Part shown: positions 392-17,100 of the stretch, piece after piece
Layout: each line of letters begins with the position of its first letter
How positions within the stretch are numbered: the first letter of the stretch is position 1
DNA from: a virus
Taxonomy: Duplodnaviria; Heunggongvirae; Uroviricota; Caudoviricetes
IMG/VR virus record: IMGVR_UViG_3300021255_000031
Direction: 5' to 3' (one strand)
Length of the DNA stretch: 64,000 bases
Made by a program: the position numbers and the translations under genes
The notes under the pieces: generated by a model
The model's database searches: none
The model's input: only the letters and a program-made list of their open reading frames with translations
What the model was told of the DNA's origin: nothing

Positions 392-460
392 ATTATATCA
401 CAATAATTGCGATTGTCAAGTTAAAAGTGAGTTAAGACTAAACTGGATGTTAAACATCCA
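392..460 (-). promoter_or_regulatory. promoter (-10 392-397 ext TGTGATATAAT; -35 TTGACA 414-419) + palindrome core TGGATGTTAAACATCCA 444-460
   Basis: read on minus strand; drives P-loop gene. Confidence 0.7.
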
Positions 461-473
461 ATTTCCTTTTAAG

Positions 474-496
474 AAAAAGCCCGCCGTGTGGCGGGC
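474..496 (-). terminator. intrinsic terminator (GCCCGCC-ACAC-GGCGGGC + U5 on minus strand)
   Basis: directly after stop of 503..907. Confidence 0.7.
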
Positions 497-502
497 TTGG
501 GA

Positions 503-907
503 TTACTTCAAGCGATACACATTTGCCTTGCCCTTGGCTTCGGTCTTAACAAGCCCGGTTGCCATTTCACGAAGCAAGATGTTCTGAACCTTCTGCCAAT
601 TAAAGTCGGCGGGCAGTTCGGCTTTCGCGGCGTCATACAAGTCCTTGGCGGTGATGTCGGAAGCAAGATACTTGCGGAGGACAGGAGCAACCTTGGCAAC
701 GAGGTCGGCACGTGCCGCCGCGGTGGCTGCCTTGCGCTTTTCCTTGGCTTCGGGAGAGGAAGCGCGGGTAGCGGAGAGCTGGTCGATCATACCGCCGACA
801 ACATCAAGCGCGTCCTTAATCGCGTTCTGCTGGTCATCGGTGAAGCTGGAGAGGTCACAAGCGTTGATGGTCTGGGTAACGATAGTCAGGGCGTTCTTCT
901 TAGTCAT
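503..907 (-). CDS. hypothetical early protein, family A (paralog of 5937..6269)
   Basis: 134-aa ORF with own promoter (961-989), AGAAAGG SD, terminator 474-496; shares N-terminal MTKN..L..VT and LPADF motif with 5937..6269. Confidence 0.7.
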   Translation of the reverse strand: MTKKNALTIVTQTINACDLSSFTDDQQNAIKDALDVVGGMIDQLSATRASSPEAKEKRKAATAAARADLVAKVAPVLRKYLASDITAKDLYDAAKAELPADFNWQKVQNILLREMATGLVKTEAKGKANVYRLK

Positions 908-960
908 ACTTTTCTACCTTTCTGGTTTGTAAGGGTTTTCCTTCCCTTGATTACGCTATA

Positions 961-989
961 ATTATATCACAGATTTGTGAGTTTGTCAA
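961..989 (-). promoter_or_regulatory. promoter for 503..907 (TATAAT 961-966 with TGTGA ext; TTGACA 984-989; 17-nt spacer)
   Basis: innermost of three stacked promoters. Confidence 0.7.
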
Positions 990-1007
990 GTTAAGAATTT
1001 GTTAATT

Positions 1008-1094
1008 GATGGTGGGTTATCCCTTTTCGTTCCCCTACCATCATTGCCTACGGCAATTGTGGTGCTTATTGGGAATAGGCTTCTTGCTTTCAAC
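1008..1094 (-). ncRNA. candidate about 85-nt transcript from orphan promoter
   Basis: contains perfect hairpin AUUGCC-GUA-GGCAAU (1043-1057); no ORF. Confidence 0.25.
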
Positions 1095-1100
1095 GTAATT

Positions 1101-1129
1101 ATTATATCACGGATTTGGGATTTTGTCAA
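1101..1129 (-). promoter_or_regulatory. orphan consensus promoter (TATAAT 1101-1106; TTGACA 1124-1129), no ORF before next promoter
   Basis: TTGACA-N17-TGATATAAT on minus strand. Confidence 0.6.
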
Positions 1130-1130
1130 G

Positions 1131-1297
1131 TGTTTTCTTCGTTAAGTTCTTGAGAGAGTTTTGACGCTATGCGCAACTTGCATCTTAATTCCTCGTGCGT
1201 TCCGCTCTTACGAGTGCCGAAGCAGTACCGTCTATTGCTACTTCCAACCGTAGCCCCACACGCGACCAGTGGCTCAGAGGTTTTCTCCCTCAAGAAC
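1131..1297 (-). ncRNA. candidate about 165-nt structured transcript from orphan promoter (no ORF)
   Basis: 5-prime GUUCUUGAGGGAG pairs with 3-prime CUCUCUCAAGAAC; internal UUCG tetraloop hairpin; bounded by promoters at 1304-1332 and 1101-1129. Confidence 0.3.
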
Positions 1298-1303
1298 AAT
1301 ATC

Positions 1304-1383
1304 ATTATACCATCATACCCATAATATGTCAAGTTAAGAATTTGTTAAGCTGGACTGGGAAACTTGGATGTTTAACATCCAAA
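1304..1383 (-). promoter_or_regulatory. orphan promoter (TGGTATAAT 1304-1309; TTGACA 1327-1332) + palindrome 1365-1383
   Basis: no ORF in the about 170 nt downstream. Confidence 0.6.
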
Positions 1384-1398
1384 TTCCCGTAGGGGAAG

Positions 1399-1419
1399 GC
1401 GGGACGCTGGGCGTCCCGC
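1399..1419 (-). terminator. GC hairpin GCGGGACGC-CCA-GCGUCCCGC after 1426..2967 (no clean U-run)
   Basis: perfect 9-bp stem. Confidence 0.45.
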
Positions 1420-1425
1420 TTCGGT

Positions 1426-2967
1426 TTAGGAGAACATGATATGGAAAGCTTTTGTGATATTTTCAATTAACTTTTCGGTGTATTGACTGGTTACGATAAC
1501 CTTTGCTTTAGTGAATTGATAATCATTACGCATATACTGTTTATTATCGACATCGGTAATAAGGCAAGTATGGGGCTGGTCTATCTGTTTGAATAGCTCA
1601 CTGCAAGTTTCTACACTGCCGGAATTATCACTTAAAGCGTCACCATCAAACAGGAAGATATTATAATTATAACTGTCCTTTTTTTGAAGATTGTTGAAAA
1701 TCTCGGTTAGGTTTTTTGGCAAGTCGTTTCCACCAGTACAATGCATTTGTCGCTCTTTAACACTTTGGCAAGTTACAAAATCATAATTGATAAATGAAAC
1801 ACTCAAAGAGAAATTGGGATTTTTTCTCTCGACTTCGGACAAGAAAGCCAGTAAAGCATTTACAATACCTTCATTATTCCTAAAGCTGCCCGAACGGTCA
1901 AGGAACAAATTCAAACGGCAAGTTCCATATTTTGTGTTACCATTTGTCACGGCTGAACGCTCAAAGTATTTATAATCATCACGCACCACGGCGCGGGGAT
2001 TAAATACGCCGCTATAAGCATTAAAGCCAGAGCCGTTTGAGTTCTTTTTATTGAAATTAGAAATAAGTCGTTCAATAATATTTTCCGCGCCCGCCAACTG
2101 TTGCTTAGCGTTATCGTTAAGCATTTTATCAGCAGAAAGGGCTTGCTTTGCTATTTCGCGGACAATTGCGCGACCAAGGGCTTCACAAGTTGTATTTTCT
2201 TCACCACTTTCGACTTCTTCGGCTTCGCCTTCACTGGCTTCGGCTTCTTCTGTCTTTTCGGCTTCATCATTCTTTATAACATCATCAAAGCCTGTCGTAG
2301 CGGTTTTTTTATCGGCCTTGTCGCCTTTTTCGCCTTCGCCGCTTTTACTCTGCGGTGGGGTTTCTACCTTGCAAGCGTCGGGGTCACCCGCGATTTTCTT
2401 AAATAAAGTCCTTATATCGCTGACATAATTCCAAATTTTTTCATAATCAGTTAAGGCGCTAATATTATTATATTTGTTAATTATTCTTTTTACTTCTTCA
2501 ATATATCCTGCTTTACCATAGCGAAAACGCACAATATTGAAAAAGCGTTGAATGGGGTCAGTCGCGGCGGGGTCAAGCTGGCAAATATTACGGAGCTGCT
2601 GTTTGAAGTCAGTATCAAGGTAATAATCGCTAAGAAGGGTTTCAATGCGCTCATCTTCAAAGATATTGAAAGCAGTGCGCTGTTGCTCATTGTGTGCCAT
2701 TCTAAGTAAATCATTGGGGGTCAAAATAACGTGGCTGATTTCGTGATAGAGCATAGAACGAACAGCCGTTTCCGTATAGCTTTCATCCATTACCGCTTCC
2801 AGCCCTTTGGCAATAATAGGGTAGGAAATAACAATCTTGTTTTCCATAGGCGAATAATAGCTGGTGGGCGCTTCCGTATCAAGAGAAACAGGAACTTGCT
2901 TCCCGCAGTAGTAGCCGATGGGTAGGGTTTTCAAGATTGCGTCAATGGTGTTGATACTTACGAACAT
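1426..2967 (-). CDS. VWA-domain protein with HExxH metallopeptidase-like N-terminal domain (DUF2201-like), partner of MoxR ATPase
   Basis: HEISH motif; C-terminal MIDAS-like DRSGS..GGND..FDGDA; GAAGGGAGAA SD; promoter 2998-3026. Confidence 0.7.
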   Translation of the reverse strand: MFVSINTIDAILKTLPIGYYCGKQVPVSLDTEAPTSYYSPMENKIVISYPIIAKGLEAVMDESYTETAVRSMLYHEISHVILTPNDLLRMAHNEQQRTAFNIFEDERIETLLSDYYLDTDFKQQLRNICQLDPAATDPIQRFFNIVRFRYGKAGYIEEVKRIINKYNNISALTDYEKIWNYVSDIRTLFKKIAGDPDACKVETPPQSKSGEGEKGDKADKKTATTGFDDVIKNDEAEKTEEAEASEGEAEEVESGEENTTCEALGRAIVREIAKQALSADKMLNDNAKQQLAGAENIIERLISNFNKKNSNGSGFNAYSGVFNPRAVVRDDYKYFERSAVTNGNTKYGTCRLNLFLDRSGSFRNNEGIVNALLAFLSEVERKNPNFSLSVSFINYDFVTCQSVKERQMHCTGGNDLPKNLTEIFNNLQKKDSYNYNIFLFDGDALSDNSGSVETCSELFKQIDQPHTCLITDVDNKQYMRNDYQFTKAKVIVTSQYTEKLIENITKAFHIMFS

Positions 2968-2997
2968 TATTTTGTTCTCCCTTCATTTGATGATATA

Positions 2998-3078
2998 ATT
3001 ATAGCACCATACCCCTATATTGTCAAGTTAAGATTGTGTAAAGTTCGGCAGACGGGTATTTGGATGTTTAACATCCAA
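2998..3078 (-). promoter_or_regulatory. promoter (TATAAT 2998-3003; TTGACA 3021-3026) + palindrome 3060-3078
   Basis: drives VWA gene. Confidence 0.7.
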
Positions 3079-3090
3079 ATTCCATTTGTT

Positions 3091-3118
3091 AAAAAAATGT
3101 TGCGGGTTTAACCCGCAA
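3091..3118 (-). terminator. intrinsic terminator GUUGCGGGUUAAACCCGCAAC + U7
   Basis: overlaps stop of MoxR gene; palindrome starts 12 nt later. Confidence 0.75.
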
Positions 3119-4106
3119 CAAATTCACCAGTGATTGCGCCCGCAAGCTGTTCTGCGCTAAGCACAAACTCACGAATATCTTCGCACCTATCGACAAGCGG
3201 CTCGGGCAAGCCATAAGTTACACCGCCGAGGGTCAAGTTCATAGTACCGATGATTTCAAAACCATCATTGATATGGACTTCACGGTTTTTGTAGAAGAAG
3301 GACTTTTTGCCATCTACAATGCCCTGCAAGAAACGGAGACTATCAAAGGGAAGAAGGTTGATTTCATCAAGCACAATGGGCTTTCCCTGTTCCATACATT
3401 CCCAAAGCATAGAGGGGTTGAAGTCGGGCTTGCCGTCCTTGAAAATGAAGTTTTCCATCAAGTCGGCGGGAAGCATAGAAGAATTACATACGATACAGCG
3501 GTTATCCGTTTCGGACTGCGCGAGAGTGGTCTTGCCAGTGCCAGCAGAGCCATAATAAACCTTGAAGCGGTTATTGATTACCTGCGAAGGCGCGCCGTAT
3601 TCCTTAATCTTTTTGAGAAGTTCGGAAAATTCCTTACTACGAATTTTCTGCTCTACATCATTAGCAAAGGAAGAACCCGTCAGCGCGAAGTAATGGTTGA
3701 TATAGTTCTTTGCTTCGGTTTGGCTTTTTACTGCCTTTTGCGCGAGGGTGTTAGTGAAACGGAAGGAGGGCACGAAGTCAAACTCTGTAAAGAATTTCAG
3801 CAGTTCGCCCAGCCCTTCCAGCAGCTGCGCCTTTTTATCTACAGGAAGTTCTGCGGCGGCTTCCACTACATCGGCTACAGCTTCGACCTGTTCAGCAGTC
3901 AGCCAGCTCGGAAAGGTAATACGGCCATCAGCAATAGCATCTACTCTATTAAGAGTAGGGATGCAACGGCAAGTATTATACAGATTGACAGCTTCGTTAT
4001 ACTCGGGCGCGTAGGATGGAACGACAGTAACTTTGCCCTTATACTGAATAACGATAGGAGAACCCTTGCAAGAGCGAGAAATTGACAGGTCAGAAGATAC
4101 GAACAT
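3108..4106 (-). CDS. MoxR-like AAA+ ATPase
   Basis: Walker A GSAGTGKTT, Walker B IVLDEIN; 332 aa; promoter 4156-4184; terminator 3091-3118. Confidence 0.75.
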   Translation of the reverse strand: MFVSSDLSISRSCKGSPIVIQYKGKVTVVPSYAPEYNEAVNLYNTCRCIPTLNRVDAIADGRITFPSWLTAEQVEAVADVVEAAAELPVDKKAQLLEGLGELLKFFTEFDFVPSFRFTNTLAQKAVKSQTEAKNYINHYFALTGSSFANDVEQKIRSKEFSELLKKIKEYGAPSQVINNRFKVYYGSAGTGKTTLAQSETDNRCIVCNSSMLPADLMENFIFKDGKPDFNPSMLWECMEQGKPIVLDEINLLPFDSLRFLQGIVDGKKSFFYKNREVHINDGFEIIGTMNLTLGGVTYGLPEPLVDRCEDIREFVLSAEQLAGAITGEFVAG

Positions 4107-4155
4107 AGCGTTGCCTTTCTGGTTTGTTGTTGTTTTCCTTCAACTTTGTGATTAG

Positions 4156-4184
4156 ATTATATCATAAGGTGGGAAGTTTGTCAA
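4156..4184 (-). promoter_or_regulatory. promoter for MoxR gene (TGATATAAT 4156-4161; TTGACA 4179-4184)
   Basis: 17-nt spacer. Confidence 0.7.
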
Positions 4185-4242
4185 GTTAAGATTTTGTTAT
4201 CTTGGTTTCTTTCCTTGCTTCCGTCCCTCAATCAACAATAAC

Positions 4243-4322
4243 ATTATACCATGTAGGGGCATATATGTCAAGTTAAGATTGCGTTAAGTGGCGGAGAAGG
4301 AAGTTGGATGTTTAACATCCAA
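4243..4322 (-). promoter_or_regulatory. orphan promoter (TGGTATAAT 4243-4248; TTGACA 4266-4271) + palindrome 4304-4322
   Basis: about 50-nt transcribed spacer before next promoter. Confidence 0.6.
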
Positions 4323-4340
4323 ACTATGAAAAGGGGAGGA

Positions 4341-4673
4341 TTACTCCTCCTCCTCCTCTGCTTCGGCGATTGCTGCAATGCTGTTGAATAGGTCAAAGAT
4401 GTCATAGGTCTGCTGGTGTTCTGTTCTCTCACCCAACAGATAGTCTATCATCTCTTCGGGCGGAAGCGCCGTTACATCACCTTCATCCCATTCAAAGCCA
4501 TAGCTCTCTACATAGCCTTCGTTATTGTGATAGCTGCCGCTATGACAGATAATATCCCCAAGAGGAAAGGCAGGGAAGCGCCACTGATAGCCGTCGAAGC
4601 AAGGGGCTACGGTGTATTTGATGCCTGCTTCGTCAAGGAGATGATTAAAGTAATCACGAGTATCTTCAAACAT
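4341..4673 (-). CDS. hypothetical acidic protein (C-terminal EAEEEEE)
   Basis: 110-aa ORF, promoter 4725-4753, hairpin 4334-4350 at 3-prime end. Confidence 0.6.
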   Translation of the reverse strand: MFEDTRDYFNHLLDEAGIKYTVAPCFDGYQWRFPAFPLGDIICHSGSYHNNEGYVESYGFEWDEGDVTALPPEEMIDYLLGERTEHQQTYDIFDLFNSIAAIAEAEEEEE

Positions 4674-4724
4674 TTTTTTTGTTCCTCTCTGGTTTGTTTG
4701 TGTTTTCCTTCACTTGATGGTATA

Positions 4725-4753
4725 ATTATAACACATAAGTGGCTGTGTGTCAA
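4725..4753 (-). promoter_or_regulatory. promoter for 4341..4673 (TGTTATAAT 4725-4730; TTGACA 4748-4753), no palindrome
   Basis: 17-nt spacer. Confidence 0.65.
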
Positions 4754-4754
4754 G

Positions 4755-12612: not shown

Positions 12613-12643
12613 GTTTTTTTACTTCCTTTCCTTTGATGTTTGT

Positions 12644-12715
12644 ATTATAACATAGAGCACGCAAAATGTCAAGTTAAGTTTGCGTAAATATAAAAGTTGG
12701 ATGTTTAACATCCAA
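12644..12715 (-). promoter_or_regulatory. promoter (TGTTATAAT 12644-12649; TTGACA 12667-12672) + palindrome 12697-12715
   Basis: drives 12376..12612. Confidence 0.7.
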
Positions 12716-12732
12716 TAAAAGGTAGAGGAGGT

Positions 12733-12930
12733 TTATTCCTCCTCCTCATCATCTATAAACAGTGTCGGATAAAGCGTAATTTCTTTAATCCAGCGCTTGG
12801 TGGTGGGCGTGTCGCTGATTTCCAACATCTCATTCAGGCGCGTAGCTTTTTTCAGGGACGGGACGGCGCAGAGAACATGAATGTCACCATCTTCGTGGTA
12901 GCGGGCGCATAGCAGGTAAATCTTATCCAT
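12733..12930 (-). CDS. small acidic protein (C-terminal DDEEEE)
   Basis: start MDKIYLL after AAAGGAGATAA SD; promoter+palindrome 12963-13042. Confidence 0.55.
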   Translation of the reverse strand: MDKIYLLCARYHEDGDIHVLCAVPSLKKATRLNEMLEISDTPTTKRWIKEITLYPTLFIDDEEEE

Positions 12931-12962
12931 ATTTGTTATCTCCTTTCCTTGATTACATATAT

Positions 12963-13042
12963 AGTATATCATAGATAGACACAAGTGTCAAGTTAAGTGT
13001 TTGTTAAGCCGTGCAAATATAATTTGGATGTTTAACATCCAA
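12963..13042 (-). promoter_or_regulatory. promoter (TGATATACT 12963-12968; TTGACA 12986-12991) + palindrome 13024-13042
   Basis: drives 12733..12930. Confidence 0.65.
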
Positions 13043-13051
13043 CTTTTTTAT

Positions 13052-13071
13052 AAACGGCATCACTGCCGTTT
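13052..13071 (-). terminator. hairpin AAACGGCA-GUGA-UGCCGUUU + AUAAAAAAGUU
   Basis: after 13060..13146. Confidence 0.55.
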
Positions 13072-13146
13072 ACTTGCTATTAACACGAAGTTAATGAAAG
13101 CGCTTATGATAATTAACATTGCTATAACAAACATTATTGTTCTCAT
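13060..13146 (-). CDS. 28-aa hydrophobic peptide (MRTIMFVIAMLIIISAFINFVLIASKRQ)
   Basis: AAAGGAGG SD 6 nt before ATG, overlaps stop of upstream gene; single TM-like segment. Confidence 0.4.
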   Translation of the reverse strand: MRTIMFVIAMLIIISAFINFVLIASKRQ

Positions 13147-13147
13147 T

Positions 13148-13459
13148 TTACGCCTCCTTTACATAAACTAAACTCATGTTAGACCATTTAAGCACACTGA
13201 TTTGGTTATGTTCTTTACCTATTCTTAACGCTTCCTTTTTCGTGCTGACACGGAAGGAATGGTCGATATAATAGACGCCTTCACTATACCAGATGCCGCA
13301 GCTTCCCTGCATCTTTTCCACAGCTCGCACAGCAGCTTTCAGCGTCTTGCGCTCAACACCATAATCCGCGACTTGATAGCCAGATTTGTAGGTTATGGCT
13401 TTACCTGCTTTTAACGTGAGTCCATCGTTGTTTTTGAGAGCTTTCAGAAGTTCGTACAT
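13148..13459 (-). CDS. hypothetical protein
   Basis: 103 aa; promoter+palindrome 13491-13582. Confidence 0.6.
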   Translation of the reverse strand: MYELLKALKNNDGLTLKAGKAITYKSGYQVADYGVERKTLKAAVRAVEKMQGSCGIWYSEGVYYIDHSFRVSTKKEALRIGKEHNQISVLKWSNMSLVYVKEA

Positions 13460-13490
13460 GAGTTTTAATCCCCTTTCATTTGATGATTAT

Positions 13491-13582
13491 ATTATAGCAC
13501 TGCGCGCCCATTATGTCAATACCTTTTTGTGTTAAGTTATTGTAAATCGCCATAAAAAATAATTTGGATGTTTAACATCCAA
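13491..13582 (-). promoter_or_regulatory. promoter (TGCTATAAT 13491-13496; TTGACA 13514-13519) + palindrome 13564-13582
   Basis: drives 13148..13459 + 28-aa peptide ORF. Confidence 0.7.
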
Positions 13583-13612
13583 AAAAGTTGAACGGGATTT
13601 TTAATCCCGTTC
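13582..13612 (-). terminator. terminator GAACGGGAU-UAAAAA-AUCCCGUUC + U-run
   Basis: after 13601..13918. Confidence 0.65.
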
Positions 13613-13918
13613 GCCCGTCCGAATGTTAATTTTTTGATTCGTGCATGCAATACTCTTAATATCGGCGTAACAGAGAGACGGCGCGTATTCTTTCAGAAAA
13701 GCTCTAATGTGCTTGCGCGTAGTGGGGCTGTATGTGCCCGTGCAAGTCAAGTATCCCGCCTTGTCAATCTCAATGATACGCGTGGTGTAGCTTATTAGCG
13801 CTATTGTACCGTCGTGGTAAATATCCACGCCTGCGCTACCGTAGGGACAATATTTAAGATTGCGGTCGTAGTTAACAGTGATGTAGCGGTATCCATCAAG
13901 AATCTTTTTGCTGTACAT
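13601..13918 (-). CDS. hypothetical protein, family B (paralog of 11947..12216)
   Basis: start MYSKKIL after GGAGG SD; promoter+palindrome 13968-14059; terminator 13590-13612. Confidence 0.65.
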   Translation of the reverse strand: MYSKKILDGYRYITVNYDRNLKYCPYGSAGVDIYHDGTIALISYTTRIIEIDKAGYLTCTGTYSPTTRKHIRAFLKEYAPSLCYADIKSIACTNQKINIRTGERD

Positions 13919-13967
13919 TGTAGCAGCCTCCGTATTTTTATTTGTTCCTTTCCTTTGGAACAATTAT

Positions 13968-14059
13968 ATTATATCATAGGGGGCCTGTTTTGTCAATAGT
14001 TTTTTATGTTAAGTTGCGGTAAATTCGCGCGGGAAATAAATTGGATGTGTAACATCCAA
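13968..14059 (-). promoter_or_regulatory. promoter (TGATATAAT 13968-13973; TTGACA 13991-13996) + palindrome variant TTGGATGTGTAACATCCAA 14041-14059
   Basis: drives 13601..13918. Confidence 0.7.
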
Positions 14060-14066
14060 CTTTTTT

Positions 14067-14090
14067 CATTCGAGGATTATTCCTCGAATG
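14067..14090 (-). terminator. hairpin CAUUCGAGGA-AUAA-UCCUCGAAUG + AAAAAAG
   Basis: after 14077..14253. Confidence 0.5.
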
Positions 14091-14253
14091 GGTCGTTACA
14101 CGACCATATAAGATGATGGTCGTCATAGACGAAAATCGCGGCAGTCGCATCTTTATTTTGGATAGTAGAAACGGCTTCCCAAGCTTTTTGCGCGGAGGTA
14201 AAGGAGTAGCGGGCGCTGATGAGGCTGGAATATACAACGATGATATCAAACAT
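14077..14253 (-). CDS. small hypothetical protein
   Basis: start MFDIIVV after AAGGGAGA SD; promoter+palindrome 14285-14366. Confidence 0.55.
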   Translation of the reverse strand: MFDIIVVYSSLISARYSFTSAQKAWEAVSTIQNKDATAAIFVYDDHHLIWSCNDPFEE

Positions 14254-14284
14254 GGTTTTTTGTCTCCCTTCACTTGATGATATA

Positions 14285-14366
14285 AGTATATCACACAAGG
14301 GGTAAGAAGTCAAGTTAAGTTTCGGTTAATGCCTGGCGCAGTAAAAGTTGGATGTTTAACATCCAA
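14285..14366 (-). promoter_or_regulatory. promoter (TGTGATATACT 14285-14290; TTGACT 14308-14313) + palindrome 14348-14366
   Basis: drives 14077..14253. Confidence 0.65.
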
Positions 14367-14395
14367 ATTTCTCGGAGGCGCTTAACGCGCCTCCC
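14366..14395 (-). terminator. terminator GGAGGCGC-GUUAA-GCGCCUCC + GAGAAAUUU
   Basis: after 14382..14609. Confidence 0.6.
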
Positions 14396-14609
14396 ATTCT
14401 TCTTCTGTTATGTCTATTATGTTAAGAATGTCCTCTATATAATAGGCAAAGATATCATTGAGTTCTGTGCGGTCAATGCCGGAGGGATACATCTCTTCCA
14501 TACATGCGTCAATGATGTCCCACTCTTCTTCGGTGATTTTGCTTGCGTTTGTTTCGGCGTTGCCCCAAAATTCAAAGTCGCGGATGCTGATTTCTTGCTT
14601 GATAGTCAT
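14382..14609 (-). CDS. small highly acidic protein (DNA-mimic-like composition)
   Basis: 75 aa, about one third Asp/Glu; promoter+palindrome 14640-14729; terminator 14375-14395. Confidence 0.6.
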   Translation of the reverse strand: MTIKQEISIRDFEFWGNAETNASKITEEEWDIIDACMEEMYPSGIDRTELNDIFAYYIEDILNIIDITEEEWEAR

Positions 14610-14639
14610 TGTTTTTTTCTCCTCTCTTTTGATGATATA

Positions 14640-14729
14640 ATTATAACATAGTTTCGGGATAGTGTCAATAGTTTTTTGTGTTAATTATAGATTAAGTCGA
14701 AAAAATGAAATTGGATGTTTAACATCCAA
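14640..14729 (-). promoter_or_regulatory. promoter (TGTTATAAT 14640-14645; TTGACA 14663-14668) + palindrome 14711-14729
   Basis: drives acidic 75-aa gene. Confidence 0.7.
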
Positions 14730-14737
14730 ATCTCGCA

Positions 14738-14755
14738 AGGGGATTTATTTCCCCT
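14738..14755 (-). terminator. hairpin AGGGGA-AAUAAA-UCCCCU
   Basis: after 14745..15005. Confidence 0.5.
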
Positions 14756-15005
14756 GCGGCGCGCACCCTGGACTCCACGCAAGTAGTTGCCCGTGACGCA
14801 TAATGTATGCGACAAAATTGTCTGGCGTTAATTCGCACATTTCCTGCGTCCATGCCCGCATGCAATATACGCGTCCTGGCCTATGCCCGAGGAAATTTGT
14901 TGCCATTTCGCGCAATTTTTTCATAGACTTAACATCGCTGGGCAACTTCCATTCACCATCACTACCCATAGGGATATAGTTTCCGTATTCGTAGAACAAC
15001 CACAT
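14745..15005 (-). CDS. hypothetical protein
   Basis: start MWLFYEY after AAAGGAGAAAA SD; promoter 15038-15066. Confidence 0.6.
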   Translation of the reverse strand: MWLFYEYGNYIPMGSDGEWKLPSDVKSMKKLREMATNFLGHRPGRVYCMRAWTQEMCELTPDNFVAYIMRHGQLLAWSPGCAPQGK

Positions 15006-15037
15006 AATTTTGTTTTCTCCTTTCATTTGATATTGAA

Positions 15038-15153
15038 ATTATATCATATAGGGTTAGTTTTGTCAATAGAAAATCAAATTAAAATTTGTTAATTTTATAT
15101 TAAAAACAAAAATGAAATTGCAAGAGTTGATAAGTTGGATGTTTAACATCCAA
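15038..15153 (-). promoter_or_regulatory. promoter (TGATATAAT 15038-15043; TTGACA 15061-15066) + palindrome 15135-15153 (unusually 68 nt beyond -35, AT-rich spacer)
   Basis: drives 14745..15005. Confidence 0.65.
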
Positions 15154-15169
15154 AACAATAAGAGTGGTA

Positions 15170-15463
15170 TTACCACCCTAATGTTATGCGTGTTGATTGA
15201 TATTGCATAGTATAGCCTGCGTTTCGTACAATCTTTGTGAGTTCGTCTATAAAGCATCTGGAAGCAAATTGCCCTAAGTCTGTGTTATCAAATGGCGGTA
15301 AATTGCGCCCTATGGACTGACGGCCTTTTTTACTTGCTTCTTCTATTGCTTTATTAAGTTCGGCAATGTAGTTTGGAATCTCTGTATGTAAAATACATTT
15401 GCGGACGTTGTTATAAAGTTCCGAGACATTCGCGCGGGCAACTTCGGCGTTCATAAGTTCCAT
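15170..15463 (-). CDS. hypothetical protein
   Basis: 97 aa; promoter+palindrome 15494-15573. Confidence 0.6.
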   Translation of the reverse strand: MELMNAEVARANVSELYNNVRKCILHTEIPNYIAELNKAIEEASKKGRQSIGRNLPPFDNTDLGQFASRCFIDELTKIVRNAGYTMQYQSTRITLGW

Positions 15464-15493
15464 AAGTTTTCCTCTCTTTCATTTGATGATATA

Positions 15494-15573
15494 ATTATAT
15501 CATATAGGATATAATAAGTCAAGTTAAGATTATGTTAAACAGTCATGCGCTATATTGGATGTTTAACATCCAA
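15494..15573 (-). promoter_or_regulatory. promoter (TGATATAAT 15494-15499; TTGACT 15517-15522) + palindrome 15555-15573
   Basis: drives 15170..15463. Confidence 0.65.
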
Positions 15574-15588
15574 CTCTTATCGCCCCAG

Positions 15589-15840
15589 TTATACTGGGAC
15601 GACGATGCGCGGAATTTTTCCGCGAAAGTCGCGTTCTTCCTGCAAGCGCTGTATTGCAACTTTGTAAAATTCATTGAATTTTTTCATTGTTGCGGGATAC
15701 TCTACAACGCGCCCGCCGTTGTGCGTATATATTTTTAATGGGCGCACATTGAAAACTAACATGCAAACAGTTTCAAAGGTGCTGATTGCAATAGCAAGGT
15801 CGCGCGTGTTGCCGTAGAACTTGATGTAGTAGTTTTTCAT
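15589..15840 (-). CDS. hypothetical protein
   Basis: 83 aa; GGAGGGG SD; promoter+palindrome 15871-15958. Confidence 0.55.
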   Translation of the reverse strand: MKNYYIKFYGNTRDLAIAISTFETVCMLVFNVRPLKIYTHNGGRVVEYPATMKKFNEFYKVAIQRLQEERDFRGKIPRIVVPV

Positions 15841-15870
15841 GGGATAACCCCTCCTTCATTTGATGATATA

Positions 15871-15958
15871 ATTATATCATAGTGTCGGAATAAAAGCAAG
15901 AGTTTTTTATGTTAAGTTTTGAAGAAAAGGCACAAAAAGTTGGATGTTTAACATCCAA
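15871..15958 (-). promoter_or_regulatory. promoter (TGATATAAT 15871-15876; weak -35 TTGCTT 15894-15899) + palindrome 15940-15958
   Basis: drives 15589..15840. Confidence 0.55.
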
Positions 15959-15972
15959 AATATAAGTAAAAA

Positions 15973-15986
15973 GGCGCGTATGCGCC
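15973..15986 (-). terminator. hairpin GGCGC-AUAC-GCGCC + U-run
   Basis: after 15993..16217. Confidence 0.5.
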
Positions 15987-15992
15987 ACTCTG

Positions 15993-16217
15993 TTAAGTTT
16001 CAATGTAGTATGCGGGATAACGCCCAGTCTCATTACTACAATTGTAGTATTGAAATGCATTTACAATTTTATCAAAGTCGTGTTCTAAATCTGCATAACA
16101 TTCACTATTCAAACGAATGCCAGTTTCGGGACGCATGTTACATGCTGTTATCCAAACGGGTTGATTAGCATTGAATGCCTTGCGTGCGCGAGACTTATTA
16201 ACTTTTTGAAGCGTCAT
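15993..16217 (-). CDS. hypothetical protein
   Basis: start MTLQKV after AAAGGAGAA SD; promoter+palindrome 16249-16330. Confidence 0.6.
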   Translation of the reverse strand: MTLQKVNKSRARKAFNANQPVWITACNMRPETGIRLNSECYADLEHDFDKIVNAFQYYNCSNETGRYPAYYIET

Positions 16218-16248
16218 GATTTTGTTCTCCTTTGCTTTTGATAGTCCT

Positions 16249-16330
16249 ATTATATCATATACATATATATTTGTCAAGTGCATTAACGCATATTTAACAT
16301 AGCAATATAAGTTGGATGTTTAACATCCAA
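16249..16330 (-). promoter_or_regulatory. promoter (TGATATAAT 16249-16254; TTGACA 16272-16277) + palindrome 16312-16330
   Basis: drives 15993..16217. Confidence 0.7.
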
Positions 16331-16356
16331 AAAAGTTTAGGACGTTTTCACGTCCT
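16331..16356 (-). terminator. terminator AGGACG-UGAAAA-CGUCCU + AAACUUUUUU
   Basis: after 16348..16617. Confidence 0.6.
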
Positions 16357-16617
16357 ATAGATTTTGCCATCTACTACATAGCACACCGACTCGCAACCAT
16401 CATAATCAATAATAATGTGGTCTGTTGCTTCGTCTGGTATTTCTACCACTGCCAGCTTCGCAGCCCAGCCACTTGTTTCGTATGCGTTATCTTCTACCAT
16501 GTGAATCAAGCGCTCGTCGTATCTGTCTGCGCCGTATATGCTATCCAGTCCTAATGCTTCGCAAGCTTCATCGCTCACGCTGAACCCACCAAAGCACCTA
16601 TTTACTACAATCTTCAT
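16348..16617 (-). CDS. hypothetical protein
   Basis: 89 aa; GAGAGGAGATAA SD; promoter 16649-16677; terminator 16339-16356. Confidence 0.6.
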   Translation of the reverse strand: MKIVVNRCFGGFSVSDEACEALGLDSIYGADRYDERLIHMVEDNAYETSGWAAKLAVVEIPDEATDHIIIDYDGCESVCYVVDGKIYRT

Positions 16618-16648
16618 AGCTGTTTATCTCCTCTCTTTTGATGGTATC

Positions 16649-16677
16649 ATTATATCACTATCTATATAAATAGTCAA
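16649..16677 (-). promoter_or_regulatory. promoter for 16348..16617 (TGATATAAT 16649-16654; TTGACT 16672-16677)
   Basis: 17-nt spacer. Confidence 0.65.
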
Positions 16678-16772
16678 GTTAATTGTTGGTTAAGTTAGAT
16701 ATTAAGTATTCAAAAAATCAACAATGAGGTTTATTCCTTATTGTGCGCTTGCGCTTGCGACTTTTACCTATT

Positions 16773-16861
16773 ATTATATACCCATTAAGTTGTAAAGTCA
16801 ATAGAATTTACAAAGATTTAACATTGCTTCTGCGTTAGAAAATTGGATGTGTAACATCCAA
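16773..16861 (-). promoter_or_regulatory. orphan promoter (TATAAT 16773-16778; TTGACT 16796-16801) + palindrome variant TTGGATGTGTAACATCCAA 16843-16861
   Basis: about 80-nt transcribed spacer with AU-rich hairpin + U-run (16726-16760) before next promoter. Confidence 0.55.
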
Positions 16862-16868
16862 ATCCTAA

Positions 16869-16888
16869 AAGGACGCTTGCGCGTCCTT
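16869..16888 (-). terminator. hairpin AAGGACGC-GCAA-GCGUCCUU + UUAGGAUUU
   Basis: overlaps stop of 16883..17039. Confidence 0.55.
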
Positions 16889-17039
16889 AACCGTAAATTT
16901 TGTTAAGCGCGCCGCCTTGGCGCTTAATGTAATTGCGTGCCGCTGTTTCTGATTTGAAACTTGCTTTTTTCTCGCTGCCGCCGCACCCGTCTTGCTTCCA
17001 GACCTCAAAAACTTTGCCAATGTGGAAAATGTCGTACAT
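16883..17039 (-). CDS. small basic protein (50 aa, MYDIFHIGKVFEVWKQDGCGG...)
   Basis: ATG with AGGAGG SD 10 nt upstream; replaces table ORF 16865..17047, which starts at a TTG touching the SD in another frame; promoter 17072-17100. Confidence 0.5.
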
Positions 17040-17071
17040 AGTAGCAACCTCCTTGCTTTTTATGGTTATAT

Positions 17072-17100
17072 TATACTCGTTCCAGCTTGCAAATGCAAGT
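17072..17100 (-). promoter_or_regulatory. promoter for 16883..17039 (TATAAT 17072-17077; -35 TTGCAT 17095-17100)
   Basis: 17-nt spacer; last (most upstream) promoter of the leftward array. Confidence 0.55.

What the first reader, a model, noticed from the sequence alone, without database searches (positions are those of the whole stretch)
392..17100. Early region is an array of self-contained cassettes, each with its own consensus promoter, SD and terminator
There are about 32 small ORFs with about 35 promoters. Nearly all promoters match TTGAC(A/T)-N17-TGnTATAAT and carry the same extended upstream context TTAAC-N5-CTTAACTTGACA. Each ORF is followed by a GC hairpin terminator. This resembles the SPO1 host-takeover module and T4 PeSL-flanked cassettes. 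The conserved about 60-bp promoter module at every gene boundary is an obvious substrate for homologous recombination and cassette gain or loss. Promoters stacked two or three deep with no ORF between them (961-1332, 4156-4271, 6320-6460, 16649-16801) look like footprints of lost cassettes.
Basis: partly seen in the sequence, partly recalled or inferred. Interest (0 to 1): 0.7.

Follow-up and report, generated by a model that had tools for sequence, protein, structure and literature searches.

The report
Phage early-gene cassette array with palindrome
This is the fast-evolving early-gene region of a large uncultured phage of gut or rumen Clostridia: almost every small gene has its own terminator, a conserved 19-bp palindrome and a consensus host promoter, and these repeated boundary modules are where related phages have gained, lost and swapped genes.

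Summary
There are 35 minus-strand promoters (33 fit TTGAC[A/T]-N16-17-TAnA[A/C]T), 31-32 small ORFs, and GC hairpins after 26 of 30 genes. Only two comparable promoters occur in the other 47 kb.

About 25 or more related IMG/VR contigs (complete ones roughly 160-190 kb) carry the same arrays. There the palindrome ends exactly 9 nt before the -35 in 355 of 471 cases. The exceptions cluster near 19 and 29 nt. That helical phasing points to a protein-binding operator, not an RNA hairpin.

A ~94-95% identical relative differs from the window by nine cassette-level events in 17 kb, against none in 11.5 kb of structural genes. Three deletion junctions map inside the module, two in the palindrome and one at CTTAACTTGACA.

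The idea that stacked promoters are footprints of lost cassettes is not supported. Real deletions leave one chimeric module, and the ORF-less spacers are structured RNAs in a family-wide tandem-promoter layout; one has 79-81% identical homologues.

Closest known: T4-type PeSL cassettes and the SPO1 host-takeover module. Verdict: a new variant of a known kind.

The parts
1..17098 (-). Whole early-gene array as far as the window shows it. It is cut by the window edge at position 1. All genes and promoters are on the minus strand.
   Evidence: the continuation beyond position 1 is seen in the relative
16887..17098 (-). Cassette g01. First (weaker) promoter 17098-17070 (TTGCAT-N17-TATAAT, no palindrome). 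Gene 17039-16887 (50 aa). Terminator AAGGACGCGCAAGCGTCCTT.
16348..16861 (-). Cassette g02. Palindrome 16843-16861. Stacked promoters 16801-16773 and 16677-16649. Gene 16617-16348 (89 aa).
16684..16772 (-). ORF-less unit between promoters 16801 and 16677. It contains a hairpin plus T-run (CAATAAGGAATAAACCTCATTG TTGATTTTTT). Candidate small RNA; 98.9% conserved in the relative.
15993..16330 (-). Cassette g03. Palindrome 16312-16330, promoter 16277-16249, gene 16217-15993 (74 aa).
15589..15958 (-). Cassette g04. Palindrome 15940-15958, weak -35 promoter 15899-15871 (TTGCTT-N17-TGaTATAAT), gene 15840-15589 (83 aa).
15170..15573 (-). Cassette g05. Palindrome 15555-15573, promoter 15522-15494, gene 15463-15170 (97 aa).
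14745..15153 (-). Cassette g06. Palindrome 15135-15153 (unusual 68-nt gap to the -35), promoter 15066-15038, gene 15005-14745 (86 aa).
14382..14729 (-). Cassette g07. Palindrome 14711-14729, promoter 14668-14640, gene 14609-14382 (75 aa). Only 81% nt identity to the relative, against 95-99% for its neighbours.
14077..14366 (-). Cassette g08. Palindrome 14348-14366, promoter 14313-14285, gene 14253-14077 (58 aa).
13601..14059 (-). Cassette g09. Palindrome 14041-14059, promoter 13996-13968, 5' hairpin leader (ATTGTTCCAAAGGAAAGGAACAA), gene 13918-13601 (105 aa). Paralogue of g13.
13060..13582 (-). Cassette g10. Palindrome 13564-13582, promoter 13519-13491, gene 13459-13148 (103 aa; conserved across the family), then a 28-aa hydrophobic mini-ORF 13146-13060 with its own SD, then the terminator.
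12733..13042 (-). Cassette g11. Palindrome 13024-13042, promoter 12991-12963, gene 12930-12733 (65 aa). Absent from the relative; the crossover maps to CTTAACTTGACA.
12376..12715 (-). Cassette g12. Palindrome 12697-12715, promoter 12672-12644, gene 12612-12376 (78 aa).
11947..12356 (-). Cassette g13. Palindrome 12338-12356, promoter 12294-12266, 5' hairpin leader, gene 12216-11947 (89 aa). Paralogue of g09.
11562..11931 (-). Cassette g14. Palindrome 11913-11931, promoter 11878-11850, gene 11819-11562 (85 aa). Its homologue sits at different array positions in other family members.
11271..11543 (-). Cassette g15. Palindrome 11525-11543, promoter 11481-11453, gene 11426-11271 (51 aa). In the relative, an unrelated ORF of the same size fills this slot.
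10789..11255 (-). Cassette g16. Palindrome 11237-11255, promoter 11203-11175, gene 11142-10789 (117 aa; conserved across the family).
10285..10771 (-). Cassette g17. Palindrome 10753-10771, promoter 10728-10700, gene 10653-10285 (122 aa). Absent from the relative; the crossover maps inside the palindrome.
9166..10268 (-). Cassette g18. Palindrome 10250-10268, promoter 10218-10190, gene 10143-9166 (325 aa, SPFH/Band 7).
8587..9141 (-). Cassette g19. Palindrome 9123-9141, promoter 9091-9063, gene 9033-8587 (148 aa, NT5C-like 5'-nucleotidase). In the relative, a GIY-YIG homing-endonuclease cassette lies between this promoter and this gene.
7722..8571 (-). Cassette g20. Palindrome 8553-8571 (variant TTAGATG...), promoter 8521-8493, gene 8444-7722 (240 aa, T5orf172 domain). 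Absent from the relative.
6540..7705 (-). Two-gene cassette g21-g22. Palindrome 7687-7705, promoter 7653-7625, genes 7593-7345 (82 aa) and 7292-6540 (250 aa, phrog_20187; conserved across the family). Absent from the relative; the junction is at the palindrome.
5937..6521 (-). Cassette g23. Palindrome 6503-6521, tandem promoters 6460-6432 and 6348-6320, gene 6269-5937 (110 aa). Predicted long helix plus C-terminal winged helix. The family has two or more copies per array in most family contigs.
6355..6425 (-). ORF-less unit between promoters 6460 and 6348. Hairpin with a 13-bp closing stem, dG -23.3 kcal/mol, z = -3.9. 100% conserved in the relative, which has one extra such unit upstream.
5622..5897 (-). 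Cassette g24. Palindrome 5879-5897, promoter 5850-5822, gene 5789-5622 (55 aa, hydrophobic). No terminator.
5151..5625 (-). Cassette g25. Promoter 5625-5598 (16-nt spacer; no palindrome and no upstream terminator), gene 5567-5151 (138 aa; conserved across the family).
4755..5134 (-). Cassette g26. Palindrome 5116-5134 (central triplet inverted), promoter 5092-5064, gene 5033-4755 (92 aa). No terminator.
4341..4753 (-). Cassette g27. Promoter 4753-4725 (no palindrome), gene 4673-4341 (110 aa).
3108..4322 (-). Cassette g28. Palindrome 4304-4322, tandem promoters 4271-4243 and 4184-4156, gene 4106-3108 (332 aa, AAA_5 ATPase).
4190..4242 (-). ORF-less 5'-hairpin unit between promoters 4271 and 4184 (GTTATTGTTGATTGAGGGA...CAAGATAAC). 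Conserved in the relative.
1426..3078 (-). Cassette g29. Palindrome 3060-3078, promoter 3026-2998, gene 2967-1426 (513 aa, no family assignment).
503..1382 (-). Cassette g30. Palindrome 1364-1382, three promoters 1332-1304, 1129-1101 and 989-961, gene 907-503 (134 aa). Its C-terminal domain is related to g23.
1135..1297 (-). ORF-less unit after promoter 1332: a structured RNA with a 13-bp closing stem. Homologues that are 79-81% identical occur in L069, L097 and L100, with compensatory pair changes. No Rfam match.
996..1094 (-). ORF-less unit after promoter 1129 (99 nt, z = -2.1). No homologue found. In the relative, the whole 1004-1324 interval is replaced by a 38-aa hydrophobic ORF cassette.
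1..461 (-). Cassette g31, cut by the window edge. Palindrome 443-461 (CTGGATG variant, inverted triplet), promoter 419-392 (16-nt spacer), gene 363-1 (truncated; weak AAA_33 match).

Best explanation
The region is the hyperplastic early (host-takeover-type) gene array of a large (~165 kb) tailed phage that infects an anaerobic Bacillota host, probably Oscillospirales. Nearly every gene is its own transcription unit, assembled from one reusable ~110-130 bp boundary module. In order, the module holds:
- a sequence-variable GC terminator hairpin;
- an invariant 19-bp palindrome;
- an A-rich TTAAC-containing, UP-like stretch;
- a consensus sigma-A promoter with extended -10 (TTGACA-N17-TGnTATAAT);
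- a short conserved leader with a strong SD.

Inferred mechanism, step 1. Host sigma-A RNA polymerase fires all ~35 promoters immediately after infection. The terminators keep the units separate.

Inferred mechanism, step 2. The palindrome is the operator of a dimeric DNA-binding protein. It sits on a fixed helical face just upstream of the -35, in the alpha-CTD/UP-element zone. This lets one factor control the whole array together, most plausibly as early shut-off. The family-conserved, multi-copy winged-helix early protein g23/g30 is a candidate for that factor.

Step 3, shown comparatively. The repeated modules provide portable homology. Crossovers in the longest identical stretches (the palindrome and CTTAACTTGACA) delete, insert, replace, duplicate and relocate cassettes without disturbing expression signals. 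This is analogous to T4-type PeSL shuffling.

Stacked promoters are tandem promoters. The upstream one adds a structured 5' RNA domain. They are not deletion scars.
For: Promoters, SD sequences, terminators and their restriction to the array.

Palindrome.
- 27 copies against 0 expected, all inside the array.
- It is a family hallmark, found in about 25 or more viral contigs with 10-40 copies each in unidirectional arrays.
- The gap to the -35 is 9 nt in 355 of 471 unique cases and 8-10 nt in 426.
- 28 of the 33 larger gaps fall within +/-1 of 9+10n.
- Window gaps cluster at 23-24, 31-34 and 41-44 nt.
- The distance from the upstream hairpin is much looser, 0-24 nt.
- Orientation of the central triplet is mixed, 206:95.
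- Half-site mismatches are A.C rather than G.U in the sense strand (5 against 1).
- As RNA the hairpin is weak: -7.8 kcal/mol for the window form and -5.8 for the family form.
- Terminator hairpins next to it vary freely in sequence, while the palindrome does not.

Recombination.
- Nine cassette-level differences from a ~94-95% identical relative in 17 kb.
- One collinear 11.5-kb HSP at 98.06% in the structural genes.
- Chimeric single modules locate crossovers at CTTAACTTGACA and in the palindrome.
- Reordering and duplication always keep orientation.
- g09 and g13 are paralogues that share the same leader class.

g23: AF2 model with pLDDT 93.8. Its top fold matches are winged-helix domains (Zur/PerR, ArsR/SmtB, CodY, TubR, Cdt1), all with weak E-values.

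Host: the portal is ~30% identical to those of large Firmicute siphoviruses. NrdD/NrdG are present. Palindrome arrays occur on short contigs binned with Acutalibacteraceae, Oscillospiraceae and Clostridium MAGs.

A sigma-like gene lies next to the array.
Against: - No transcript or binding data exist. 'Early', 'promoter', 'terminator' and 'operator' are all sequence inferences.
- In the window, the palindrome is present only where a terminator precedes the promoter. It is absent from the 8 promoters with no upstream terminator. That fits a terminator-associated role as well as an operator role.
- The window lineage has gaps (about 23, 33 and 43 nt) that are out of register with the family's 9, 19 and 29 nt.
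- Phasing classes could partly reflect spread of a few ancestral module types by duplication rather than selection.
- Consensus promoters need no activator, and a site centred near -54 does not overlap the core promoter, so the mode of repression is unclear.
- The link between g23/g30 and the palindrome is circumstantial, and no Foldseek hit reached E <= 0.001.
- At least one gain, and possibly two, involve homing-endonuclease-type genes. So module homology is not the only driver of turnover.
- Only three crossovers were mapped.
Confidence: 0.65

Rival explanations
1. The palindrome acts as RNA, not DNA. It would be a second hairpin of a bipartite terminator, or a processing or 3'-stabilising site, transcribed at the end of each cassette mRNA.
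For: In the window it always follows a GC hairpin, with a modal gap of 7 nt. Many of those GC hairpins lack a good U-run, while the palindrome is often followed by T-rich sequence. It is absent from promoters that have no upstream terminator. The scan scores many copies as terminator-like.
Against: Across the family it is locked to the -35 (9 nt in 75% of cases; the rest in 10-bp steps), but only loosely to the upstream hairpin. The central triplet occurs in both orientations relative to transcription (206:95). Variants give A.C mismatches in the sense RNA five times and G.U once. The stem is weak (-5.8 kcal/mol for the family consensus). Invariance of a 19-mer across diverged genomes, next to freely varying terminator stems, indicates sequence-specific recognition.
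Confidence: 0.2
2. Cassette turnover is driven mainly by selfish mobile genes (free-standing homing endonucleases) and illegitimate recombination. The conserved modules exist only because of selection for expression and are incidental to the rearrangements.
For: The relative's only extra cassette is a GIY-YIG homing endonuclease. The window-specific block g20-g22 begins with a T5orf172 (GIY-YIG-related) protein. The genome carries several other HEG-like ORFs.
Against: Three deletions or insertions have junctions exactly within shared module sequence and leave clean chimeric modules. g11, g15 and g17 are not nucleases. All reordered or duplicated cassettes keep orientation, as expected for recombination between direct repeats.
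Confidence: 0.2
3. One reading: promoters stacked with no ORF between them are scars left when cassettes were deleted.
For: At the 1004-1324 locus the relative carries a tiny 38-aa ORF cassette where the window has two ORF-less units. The number of ORF-less units differs between the two phages. The 996-1094 unit has no detectable homologue.
Against: The mapped deletions leave one module, not two promoters. The spacers fold into closed stems with z-scores of -2.1 to -3.9. The 1135-1297 unit is conserved at 79-81% in distant relatives, with compensatory changes. The P1-RNA-P2 layout, with conserved 5' (TTGTTCCAAGGGAG) and 3' (CTCCCTTGTAACAA) arms, recurs family-wide.
Confidence: 0.1
4. The array is an integron-like platform. 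The palindrome would be a site for a dedicated site-specific recombinase or nuclease that excises and inserts cassettes.
For: The array is unidirectional, with small cassettes each bounded by a palindrome. Two of the three mapped crossovers lie in the palindrome. Order is shuffled with orientation preserved.
Against: No integrase or recombinase was found among the window ORFs scanned. The cassettes have their own promoters. One crossover is at the -35, not the palindrome. The palindrome is one of the two longest identical stretches, so homologous recombination predicts the same junctions. Its phasing with the -35 points to a transcriptional role.
Confidence: 0.07

Closest known systems
PeSL (promoter-early stem-loop) regulatory cassettes of T4-type phages (Arbiol et al. 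2010, PMC2839356; Comeau et al. 2014, PMC4122927)
   Same: Both are ~100-bp composite terminator/promoter motifs with consensus host-sigma early promoters, an AT-rich upstream part and an SD. Both are concentrated in hyperplastic regions upstream of ORFans. In both, indels and replacements between ~95% identical phages are bounded by the motifs, and the inferred mechanism is homologous recombination between motifs.
   Different: The phage lineage and host phylum are unrelated: a siphovirus-like phage of Bacillota with a Gram-positive-type extended -10. Here there is one contiguous unidirectional array with a module at almost every gene. In PeSLs the stem-loop is the GC-rich terminator, placed variably within or around the promoter. 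Here a separate, sequence-invariant 19-bp palindrome is phased to the -35 in addition to the terminator. Mini-circles were not tested.
SPO1 host-takeover module (Stewart et al. 1998, cited via PMC6873191)
   Same: Both are clusters of roughly 25-30 small early genes of a large Bacillota phage, with promoters and ribosome-binding sites typical of highly expressed genes. In both, a phage sigma-type cascade is available to switch transcription away from host sigma-A (the sigma-like gene is).
   Different: SPO1 genes are grouped in operons within the terminal redundancy; here the units are mostly monocistronic and the position relative to the genome ends is unknown. No detectable protein homology was found. 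No palindromic upstream element is described for SPO1 (own knowledge). Cassette shuffling has not been described for SPO1.
Global palindromic operators of plasmid RK2/RP4 (KorA OA, KorB OB; PMC11790492, PMC2665229)
   Same: Here too, one short palindrome is repeated at many strong promoters of a mobile element, which allows a single dimeric repressor to control a whole regulon together.
   Different: This is a functional analogy only. The sequences are unrelated, no ParB or KorA homologue has been identified, and the copy number here (27-40 per genome) and the fixed 9-nt offset are far more regular.
Integron gene-cassette arrays
   Same: Both are unidirectional arrays of small, mostly orphan ORFs separated by palindromic elements, with presence/absence and order polymorphism between relatives.
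   Different: Here the cassettes carry their own promoters and terminators. The palindrome is perfect and invariant, unlike attC sites. No integrase, attI or Pc was found. One junction lies at the -35.

Membership tests
T4-type PeSL regulatory cassettes | Strong sigma-70-consensus early promoter with an AT-rich upstream region and a downstream SD | tested here: met
   33 promoters TTGAC[AT]-N16-17-TAnA[AC]T, 25 of them perfect 12/12. A-rich TTAAC stretch upstream and AAAGGAG SD downstream. Sequence level only.
T4-type PeSL regulatory cassettes | Stem-loop in or next to the motif that acts as a terminator or attenuator | tested here: met
   26 of 30 genes are followed by a GC hairpin (dG -6 to -19 kcal/mol) just upstream of the next promoter. 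Termination activity was not tested.
T4-type PeSL regulatory cassettes | Concentrated in hyperplastic regions, upstream of ORFans | tested here: met
   All motifs lie in 1-17098. 21 of the 30 proteins have no Pfam family with E <= 0.001. The array is 93-95% identical to the relative with nine structural differences, against 98% and no large indel in the structural genes.
T4-type PeSL regulatory cassettes | Indels and replacements between close relatives bounded by the motifs | tested here: met
   g11, g17 and g20-22 are absent from the relative, with chimeric single modules at the junctions. The g15 slot is replaced. A HEG cassette is inserted.
T4-type PeSL regulatory cassettes | Belongs to T4-like myoviruses, or shares motif ancestry with them | tested here: not met
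   The best portal matches (~30%) are large Firmicute siphoviruses such as Enterococcus EF1/VRE9 and phAss-1, with weaker (~25%) matches to the Lactococcus 949 group. The motif has a TGn extended -10 and a separate invariant palindrome.
T4-type PeSL regulatory cassettes | Formation of excised cassette mini-circles | not testable with these tools
   This needs outward-facing PCR or read-level data from phage DNA.
SPO1-type host-takeover module | Cluster of small early genes with sigma-A consensus promoters and strong RBS | tested here: met
SPO1-type host-takeover module | Located in the terminal redundancy of the genome | not testable with these tools
   Genome termini are unknown. Some related contigs have arrays that span the contig ends, which is uninformative.
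SPO1-type host-takeover module | Homology to SPO1 gp37-gp60 | tested here: inconclusive
   No direct comparison with SPO1 proteins was run. Pfam (all array proteins) and PHROGs (ten of the larger ones) gave no host-takeover family beyond a generic 'moron/host takeover' PHROG category hit for the AAA ATPase g28.
Integron | Adjacent IntI-type tyrosine recombinase with attI and a common promoter Pc | tested here: not met
   No recombinase was found among the window ORFs scanned. Only part of the ~165-kb genome is in the window.
Integron | Promoterless cassettes that end in imperfect attC palindromes of variable sequence | tested here: not met
   Each cassette has its own promoter. The palindrome is perfect and invariant.
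Multi-operator global repressor regulon (KorA/KorB-like logic) | The same palindromic operator at a fixed position relative to many promoters | tested here: met
   27 copies in the window. Family-wide, the gap to the -35 is 9 nt in 355 of 471 cases, with the remainder in 10-bp steps.
Multi-operator global repressor regulon (KorA/KorB-like logic) | An element-encoded dimeric DNA-binding protein that recognises the operator | tested here: inconclusive
   The g23/g30 family is predicted to have a long helix plus a winged helix (pLDDT 93.8), and its top fold matches are wHTH regulators with E-values of 0.01-0.2. There is no evidence that it binds the palindrome.

The most novel reading that the evidence does not exclude
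The boundary module would be a self-contained 'plug-and-play' unit with two jobs. First, its invariant palindrome would be the operator of a phage-encoded winged-helix factor (the g23/g30 family) that switches 30-40 monocistronic sigma-A promoters together. Second, it would be the preferred crossover point that lets any incoming gene acquire full early regulation on insertion. In addition, the ORF-less units behind tandem promoters would be a new family of phage structured RNAs built on a shared closing stem.
Probability: 0.3. Interest if true: 0.75.

Novelty: new variant of a known kind. Interest (0 to 1): 0.6.

Why it matters
Regulatory cassettes that mediate gene shuffling (PeSLs) have so far been described in T4-like phages of Gram-negative hosts. 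This window shows the same evolutionary logic arising independently in a family of large uncultured phages of gut or rumen Clostridia. The form here is more regular: one module per gene.

There is also an extra, sequence-invariant palindrome phased to the -35. That element offers a concrete handle on how a phage could control dozens of consensus-strength host promoters at once.

The arrays are natural libraries of small host-takeover ORFans and tiny membrane peptides. Each comes with a ready-made strong Gram-positive promoter, RBS and terminator, which could be useful parts for synthetic biology in Bacillota.

The conserved structured RNAs behind the tandem promoters are unannotated phage non-coding RNAs.

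Tried and rejected
- Megablast of 1-20000 against INPHARED phages found no match.
- Rfam at gathering threshold found nothing on the whole window. Rfam at E <= 1 found nothing on 900-1420. On 115 kb of related arrays it found only one tRNA.
- ARAGORN found no tRNA in the window.
- Pfam on all array proteins: only g18, g19, g20 and g28 pass a family's curated cut-off, and the rest have at best sub-threshold matches. PHROGs on ten of the larger ones added only g22 and g28.
- A PDB sequence search with g23 and g30 gave nothing meaningful.
- I looked for an obvious HTH regulator among the other window ORFs and found none; they are nucleotide-metabolism genes and homing endonucleases.
- I considered that the palindrome (8-bp stem, 3-nt loop) could be an N4-type hairpin promoter for a virion RNA polymerase encoded by the 4142-aa ORF. 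I rejected this for three reasons. That ORF sits in the tape-measure position, directly upstream of Dit. The palindrome lies upstream of a complete sigma-A promoter rather than at a transcription start. Its triplet orientation is not strand-specific.
- I considered a host transcription-factor operator. A scan of 185,579 species genomes found multi-copy hits only on short phage-like contigs binned into Clostridia MAGs, and single hits at roughly chance level. Exact-match scanning is insensitive to degenerate host sites, so this is weak evidence.
- My first reading that the relative had an 'empty' promoter where the window has g20-g22 was wrong. The junction is at the palindrome, and the extra promoter belongs to an additional ORF-less RNA unit.
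- Searches for more homologues of the 1135-1297 RNA found three full-length hits: L069 and L096, which are one contig held in two collections, L097 and L100. These are close to one another, so covariation rests on effectively two lineages.
- The first version of the hairpin-distance script timed out and was replaced.

Full report
**1. What is in the sequence**

All coding capacity of window 1-17098 is on the minus strand.

Promoters:
- The consensus scan found 25 perfect TTGACA-N16/17-TATAAT sites and 7 sites with 11 of 12 matches. All are on the minus strand between 392 and 16801.
- A regex for TTGAC[AT]-N16-18-TA[N]A[AC]T finds 33 sites there and only two in the remaining 47 kb: 18662 on the + strand and 58737 on the - strand.
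- About 28 of the 33 carry the TG of an extended -10.
- Two weaker sites (15899-15871 and 17098-17070) bring the total to 35.

Genes and terminators:
- I called 30 genes between 503 and 17039, a 28-aa mini-ORF (13146-13060) and a truncated gene at 363-1. Each has an AGGAG-type SD.
- 26 of the 30 are followed by a GC hairpin of -6 to -19 kcal/mol.

The 'TTAAC-N5-CTTAACTTGACA' context is real but less uniform than stated. TTAAC abuts the -35 in 22 of 33 promoters. Eight have AAACTA-TTGACA instead.

**2.

A perfect 19-bp palindrome, TTGGATGT-TAA-ACATCCAA in the minus-strand reading, occurs 27 times at up to 2 mismatches. All copies lie between 443 and 16861, and none is expected by chance.

The full boundary module on the transcribed strand reads:
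1. stop codon;
2. GC hairpin (every one different);
3. a gap of 0-19 nt, modal 7;
4. the palindrome;
5. 23-44 nt containing TTAAC;
6. the -35, a 17-nt spacer and TGnTATAAT;
7. a conserved leader (…ATCAAATGAAAGGAGA…);
8. the ATG.

Promoters that are not preceded by a terminator lack the palindrome. These are 17098, 16677, 6348, 5625, 4753, 4184, 1129 and 989.

**3. What kind of genome this is**

There is no near match in INPHARED. The rest of the window encodes:
- a sigma-factor-like protein, 18732-20036, phrog_5767;
- a large terminase split by an HNH endonuclease ORF;
- a portal;
- a 4142-aa ORF in the tape-measure position, followed by a Dit-like protein;
- NrdD and NrdG, dUTPase, a RuvC-like protein and GIY-YIG endonucleases.

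The portal is ~30% identical to those of large siphoviruses of Firmicutes (Enterococcus EF1/VRE9, gut phage phAss-1), with weaker ~25% matches to Brevibacillus Sundance and the Lactococcus 949 group.

Palindrome arrays also occur on short contigs binned with Acutalibacteraceae, Oscillospiraceae, Clostridium and Bacillota MAGs.

The host is therefore most likely an anaerobic member of the Clostridia. That fits the Gram-positive-type extended -10 promoters. This is an inference.

Array proteins:
- Most are ORFans.
- The assignable ones are an AAA_5 ATPase (g28), a T5orf172 protein (g20), an NT5C nucleotidase (g19) and an SPFH protein (g18).

**4. Relatives and the palindrome's position**

Scanning IMG/VR for the exact palindrome found one close relative, UViG_3300031994_000013 (167,250 bp). 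A slightly degenerate pattern found 79 stretches from about 25 or more contigs; the largest, apparently complete ones are roughly 160-190 kb. Each contig carries a unidirectional array of 10-40 palindromes over 10-20 kb.

The usual family form is TTAGATG-N5-CATCTAA. The window lineage has changed both arms (A/T to G/C) in essentially all copies.

Gaps, for 471 unique palindrome-promoter pairs outside the window lineage:
- The palindrome ends exactly 9 nt before the -35 in 355 pairs, and 8-10 nt before it in 426.
- Of the 33 larger gaps, 28 fall within +/-1 nt of 19 or 29.
- In the 29-nt class the extra 20 bp are A-tract, UP-like sequences of diverse sequence.
- The distance from the upstream hairpin is spread over 0-24 nt.

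In the window the gaps cluster at 23-24, 31-34 and 41-44 nt. These are again steps of about 10 bp, but in a different register.

Other observations:
- The central triplet occurs in both orientations relative to transcription (206:95).
- Half-site mismatches are A.C (5) rather than G.U (1) in the sense strand.
- As RNA the stem is weak: -7.8 kcal/mol for the window form and -5.8 for the family form.

Together these results favour a DNA-level element on a fixed face of the helix at about -45 to -63, that is, a binding site for a dimeric protein that communicates with RNA polymerase. They argue against a transcribed hairpin.

The RNA reading is not excluded, because in the window the palindrome is seen only at terminator-promoter junctions.

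**5. A candidate factor**

The most widely conserved array gene is g23. Homologues are on almost every family contig, with two or more copies in most arrays. It shares its C-terminal domain with g30. Both genes sit behind the tandem promoters.

With 19 homologues from the protein database, AlphaFold2 gives a confident model with pLDDT 93.8. It has a long helical hairpin plus a beta-alpha-alpha-beta-beta winged helix.

Foldseek gives no hit with E <= 0.001. The top hits are consistently winged-helix domains: Zur/PerR, ArsR/SmtB/CzrA/HlyU, CodY, YodB, TubR, Cdt1 and Z-alpha.

This makes g23/g30 a plausible palindrome-binding protein. The link is circumstantial.

**6. Cassette gain, loss and shuffling**

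I concatenated six contiguous loci of the close relative into one sequence, REL (contig 80231-105544). It is collinear with the window array at ~93-95% identity, interrupted by the following differences:

1. g11 is window-only.
2. g17 is window-only.
3. g20-g22 are window-only. g22 is conserved across the family, so this is a deletion in the relative.
4. An 826-bp GIY-YIG homing-endonuclease cassette is REL-only. It lies between the g19 promoter and g19, with its own palindrome and promoter.
5. The g15 slot holds unrelated 51-aa ORFs in the two phages.
6. Window 1004-1324 (two ORF-less units) corresponds to a 38-aa hydrophobic ORF in REL.
7. REL has one extra ORF-less unit upstream of g23.
8. 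g07 is only 81% identical between the two phages, against 95-99% for its neighbours.
9. g13 is likewise divergent, at 88%.

Three-way alignments show that the relative's single module is a chimera of the two window modules. The switch point is inside CTTAACTTGACA for g11 and inside the palindrome for g17 and for g20-22.

As a control, window 18502-30033 (sigma-like gene to head genes) aligns to the relative as one 11.5-kb HSP at 98.06% with no large indel.

Across the family a backbone order persists: g10-(g13)-(g06-g07-g03)-g16-g19-g22-g23-g25. Against that backbone, g03, g14, g27, g28-g29 and g30 occupy different positions, g22 and g23 are multiplied, and every hit keeps the array orientation. 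g09 and g13 are paralogues that share the same unusual leader.

This is the pattern described for T4-type PeSLs: ~100-bp composite terminator/promoter motifs that bound the ORFan indels between RB49 and phi1 (PMC2839356; PMC4122927).

**7. The stacked promoters**

Recombination between two directly repeated modules leaves one hybrid module. That is what the three mapped events show, so stacked promoters are not the expected scar.

In each stack:
- The upstream promoter has the palindrome and a leader that starts ATTGTT..GAGGGA.
- The downstream promoter lacks the palindrome and has an 'AAACCAGAAAGG' leader.

The spacers fold as follows:
- 1135-1297 has a 13-bp closing stem (z = -2.2).
- 996-1094 has z = -2.1.
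- 6355-6425 has a 13-bp stem (z = -3.9).

The 1135-1297 unit is 79-81% identical to sequences in IMGVR_3300028048_000134 (L069) and in two metagenome contigs. The consensus fold has 5-6 pairs with compensatory double changes. This rests on effectively two lineages, so it is suggestive rather than conclusive.

Family-wide:
- ORF-less units begin TTGTTCCAAGGGAG and end CTCCCTTGTAACAA, with variable GC-rich interiors.
- They are followed by AAAACTTAACAAAA and a second promoter.
- The short form of the same 5' hairpin (GTTCC-AAG-GGAAC, with co-varying stems) heads many ordinary mRNAs.
- None matches Rfam.

I read these as tandem promoters whose upstream member adds a structured 5' domain. The analogy, from my own knowledge, is 5'-stabiliser elements of Bacillus mRNAs such as the SP82 and aprE leaders. 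A small-RNA role is also possible.

The 16684-16772 unit has a hairpin plus T-run and could be a free-standing small RNA.

In the window lineage it now sits between the palindrome and the -35 at most promoters.

**8. Mechanism, with status of each step**

- Shown from sequence and comparison: the modular architecture; restriction of promoters and palindromes to the array; family-wide phasing; cassette-level polymorphism with junctions in the module; conservation of at least one ORF-less RNA.
- Inferred: host sigma-A RNAP transcribes all units early; the hairpins terminate transcription; the palindrome binds a dimeric factor (candidate g23/g30) for coordinate control, most plausibly shut-off, since consensus promoters need no activation; the sigma-like protein next to the array redirects transcription later; homologous recombination at the longest identical stretches drives the shuffling, with homing endonucleases contributing some gains.

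**9. Comparison with known systems and verdict**

Functionally this is a PeSL-type system and an SPO1-type host-takeover cluster. It is not a member of the T4 PeSL set, because the phage lineage, promoter type and motif composition all differ.

The invariant, helically phased palindrome present at nearly every early promoter of a whole phage family has no counterpart in those descriptions. The nearest analogy is the palindromic operators of plasmid global repressors such as KorA and KorB (PMC11790492).

I rate it a new variant of a known kind, with moderate-to-good interest. The recombination idea is supported. The 'footprint' idea is not.

Noticed in passing
window 20927-23988: The large terminase gene is in two pieces (20927-21844 and 23080-23988), separated by an HNH/homing-endonuclease ORF (21940-23019, phrog_559). 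This may be an intron or a split gene. The arrangement is conserved in the 98%-identical relative.
   Followed up: partly
window 34048-46476: A single 4142-aa ORF lies directly upstream of a Dit-like protein (46483-48063) and a 1454-aa ORF. That is the tape-measure position and would imply an exceptionally long tail. No domain search was run on it.
   Followed up: no
window 17119-17158 (also 17080-17087): A run of AGCTGGA(A) repeats (period 7, about 6 copies) sits at the head of the array, just upstream of the first promoter. Similar AGCTGGA repeat clusters occur in several other family members (REL, 28888_000381, 31994_000440, L002). It might be a binding-site cluster, an origin or a packaging signal.
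   Followed up: partly
window 17240-17400: GCGTTAAGATT x3.6 and further GTTAAG/CGTAAAG repeats lie in the divergent intergenic region between the array and the rightward genes.
   Followed up: no
window 13060-13146 (-); REL ~13673-13789; several family loci: Tiny hydrophobic peptide genes (22-38 aa, single predicted membrane helix) with their own SD recur as cassettes or cassette passengers throughout the family's arrays.
   Followed up: partly
window 56750-58674 (-): Two adjacent GIY-YIG homing-endonuclease-like ORFs (one with NUMOD1 domains) lie next to the nrdG/nrdD genes (58876-61821). Together with the HNH ORF in terL and the T5orf172 gene in the array, the genome is rich in selfish nucleases.
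   Followed up: no
window 18662-20036 (+): The sigma-factor-like gene (phrog_5767, E 2.5e-15; its C-terminus weakly resembles endonuclease VII) has the only consensus promoter on the + strand and no palindrome. It is a candidate for the switch from early to middle transcription.
   Followed up: partly
window 17469-18502: The 260-aa ORF 17707-18489 and its flanks are replaced by ~1.5 kb of unrelated sequence in the otherwise 98%-identical relative. This is another replacement hotspot at the head of the array.
   Followed up: partly
L021 2711-2801 (-); 28888_000178 array: At least one related array carries a tRNA gene. In another, an ORF-less unit runs into tRNA-like sequence. So RNA genes can also be cassette cargo.
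   Followed up: no
L098-L116 (metagenome contigs): The 19-mer GAGCGGAACGCACGAGGAA from the 1135-1297 RNA also occurs in about 17 unrelated-looking metagenome contigs, as 19-30-nt matches only. I could not tell whether these are chance hits or a shared motif.
   Followed up: no
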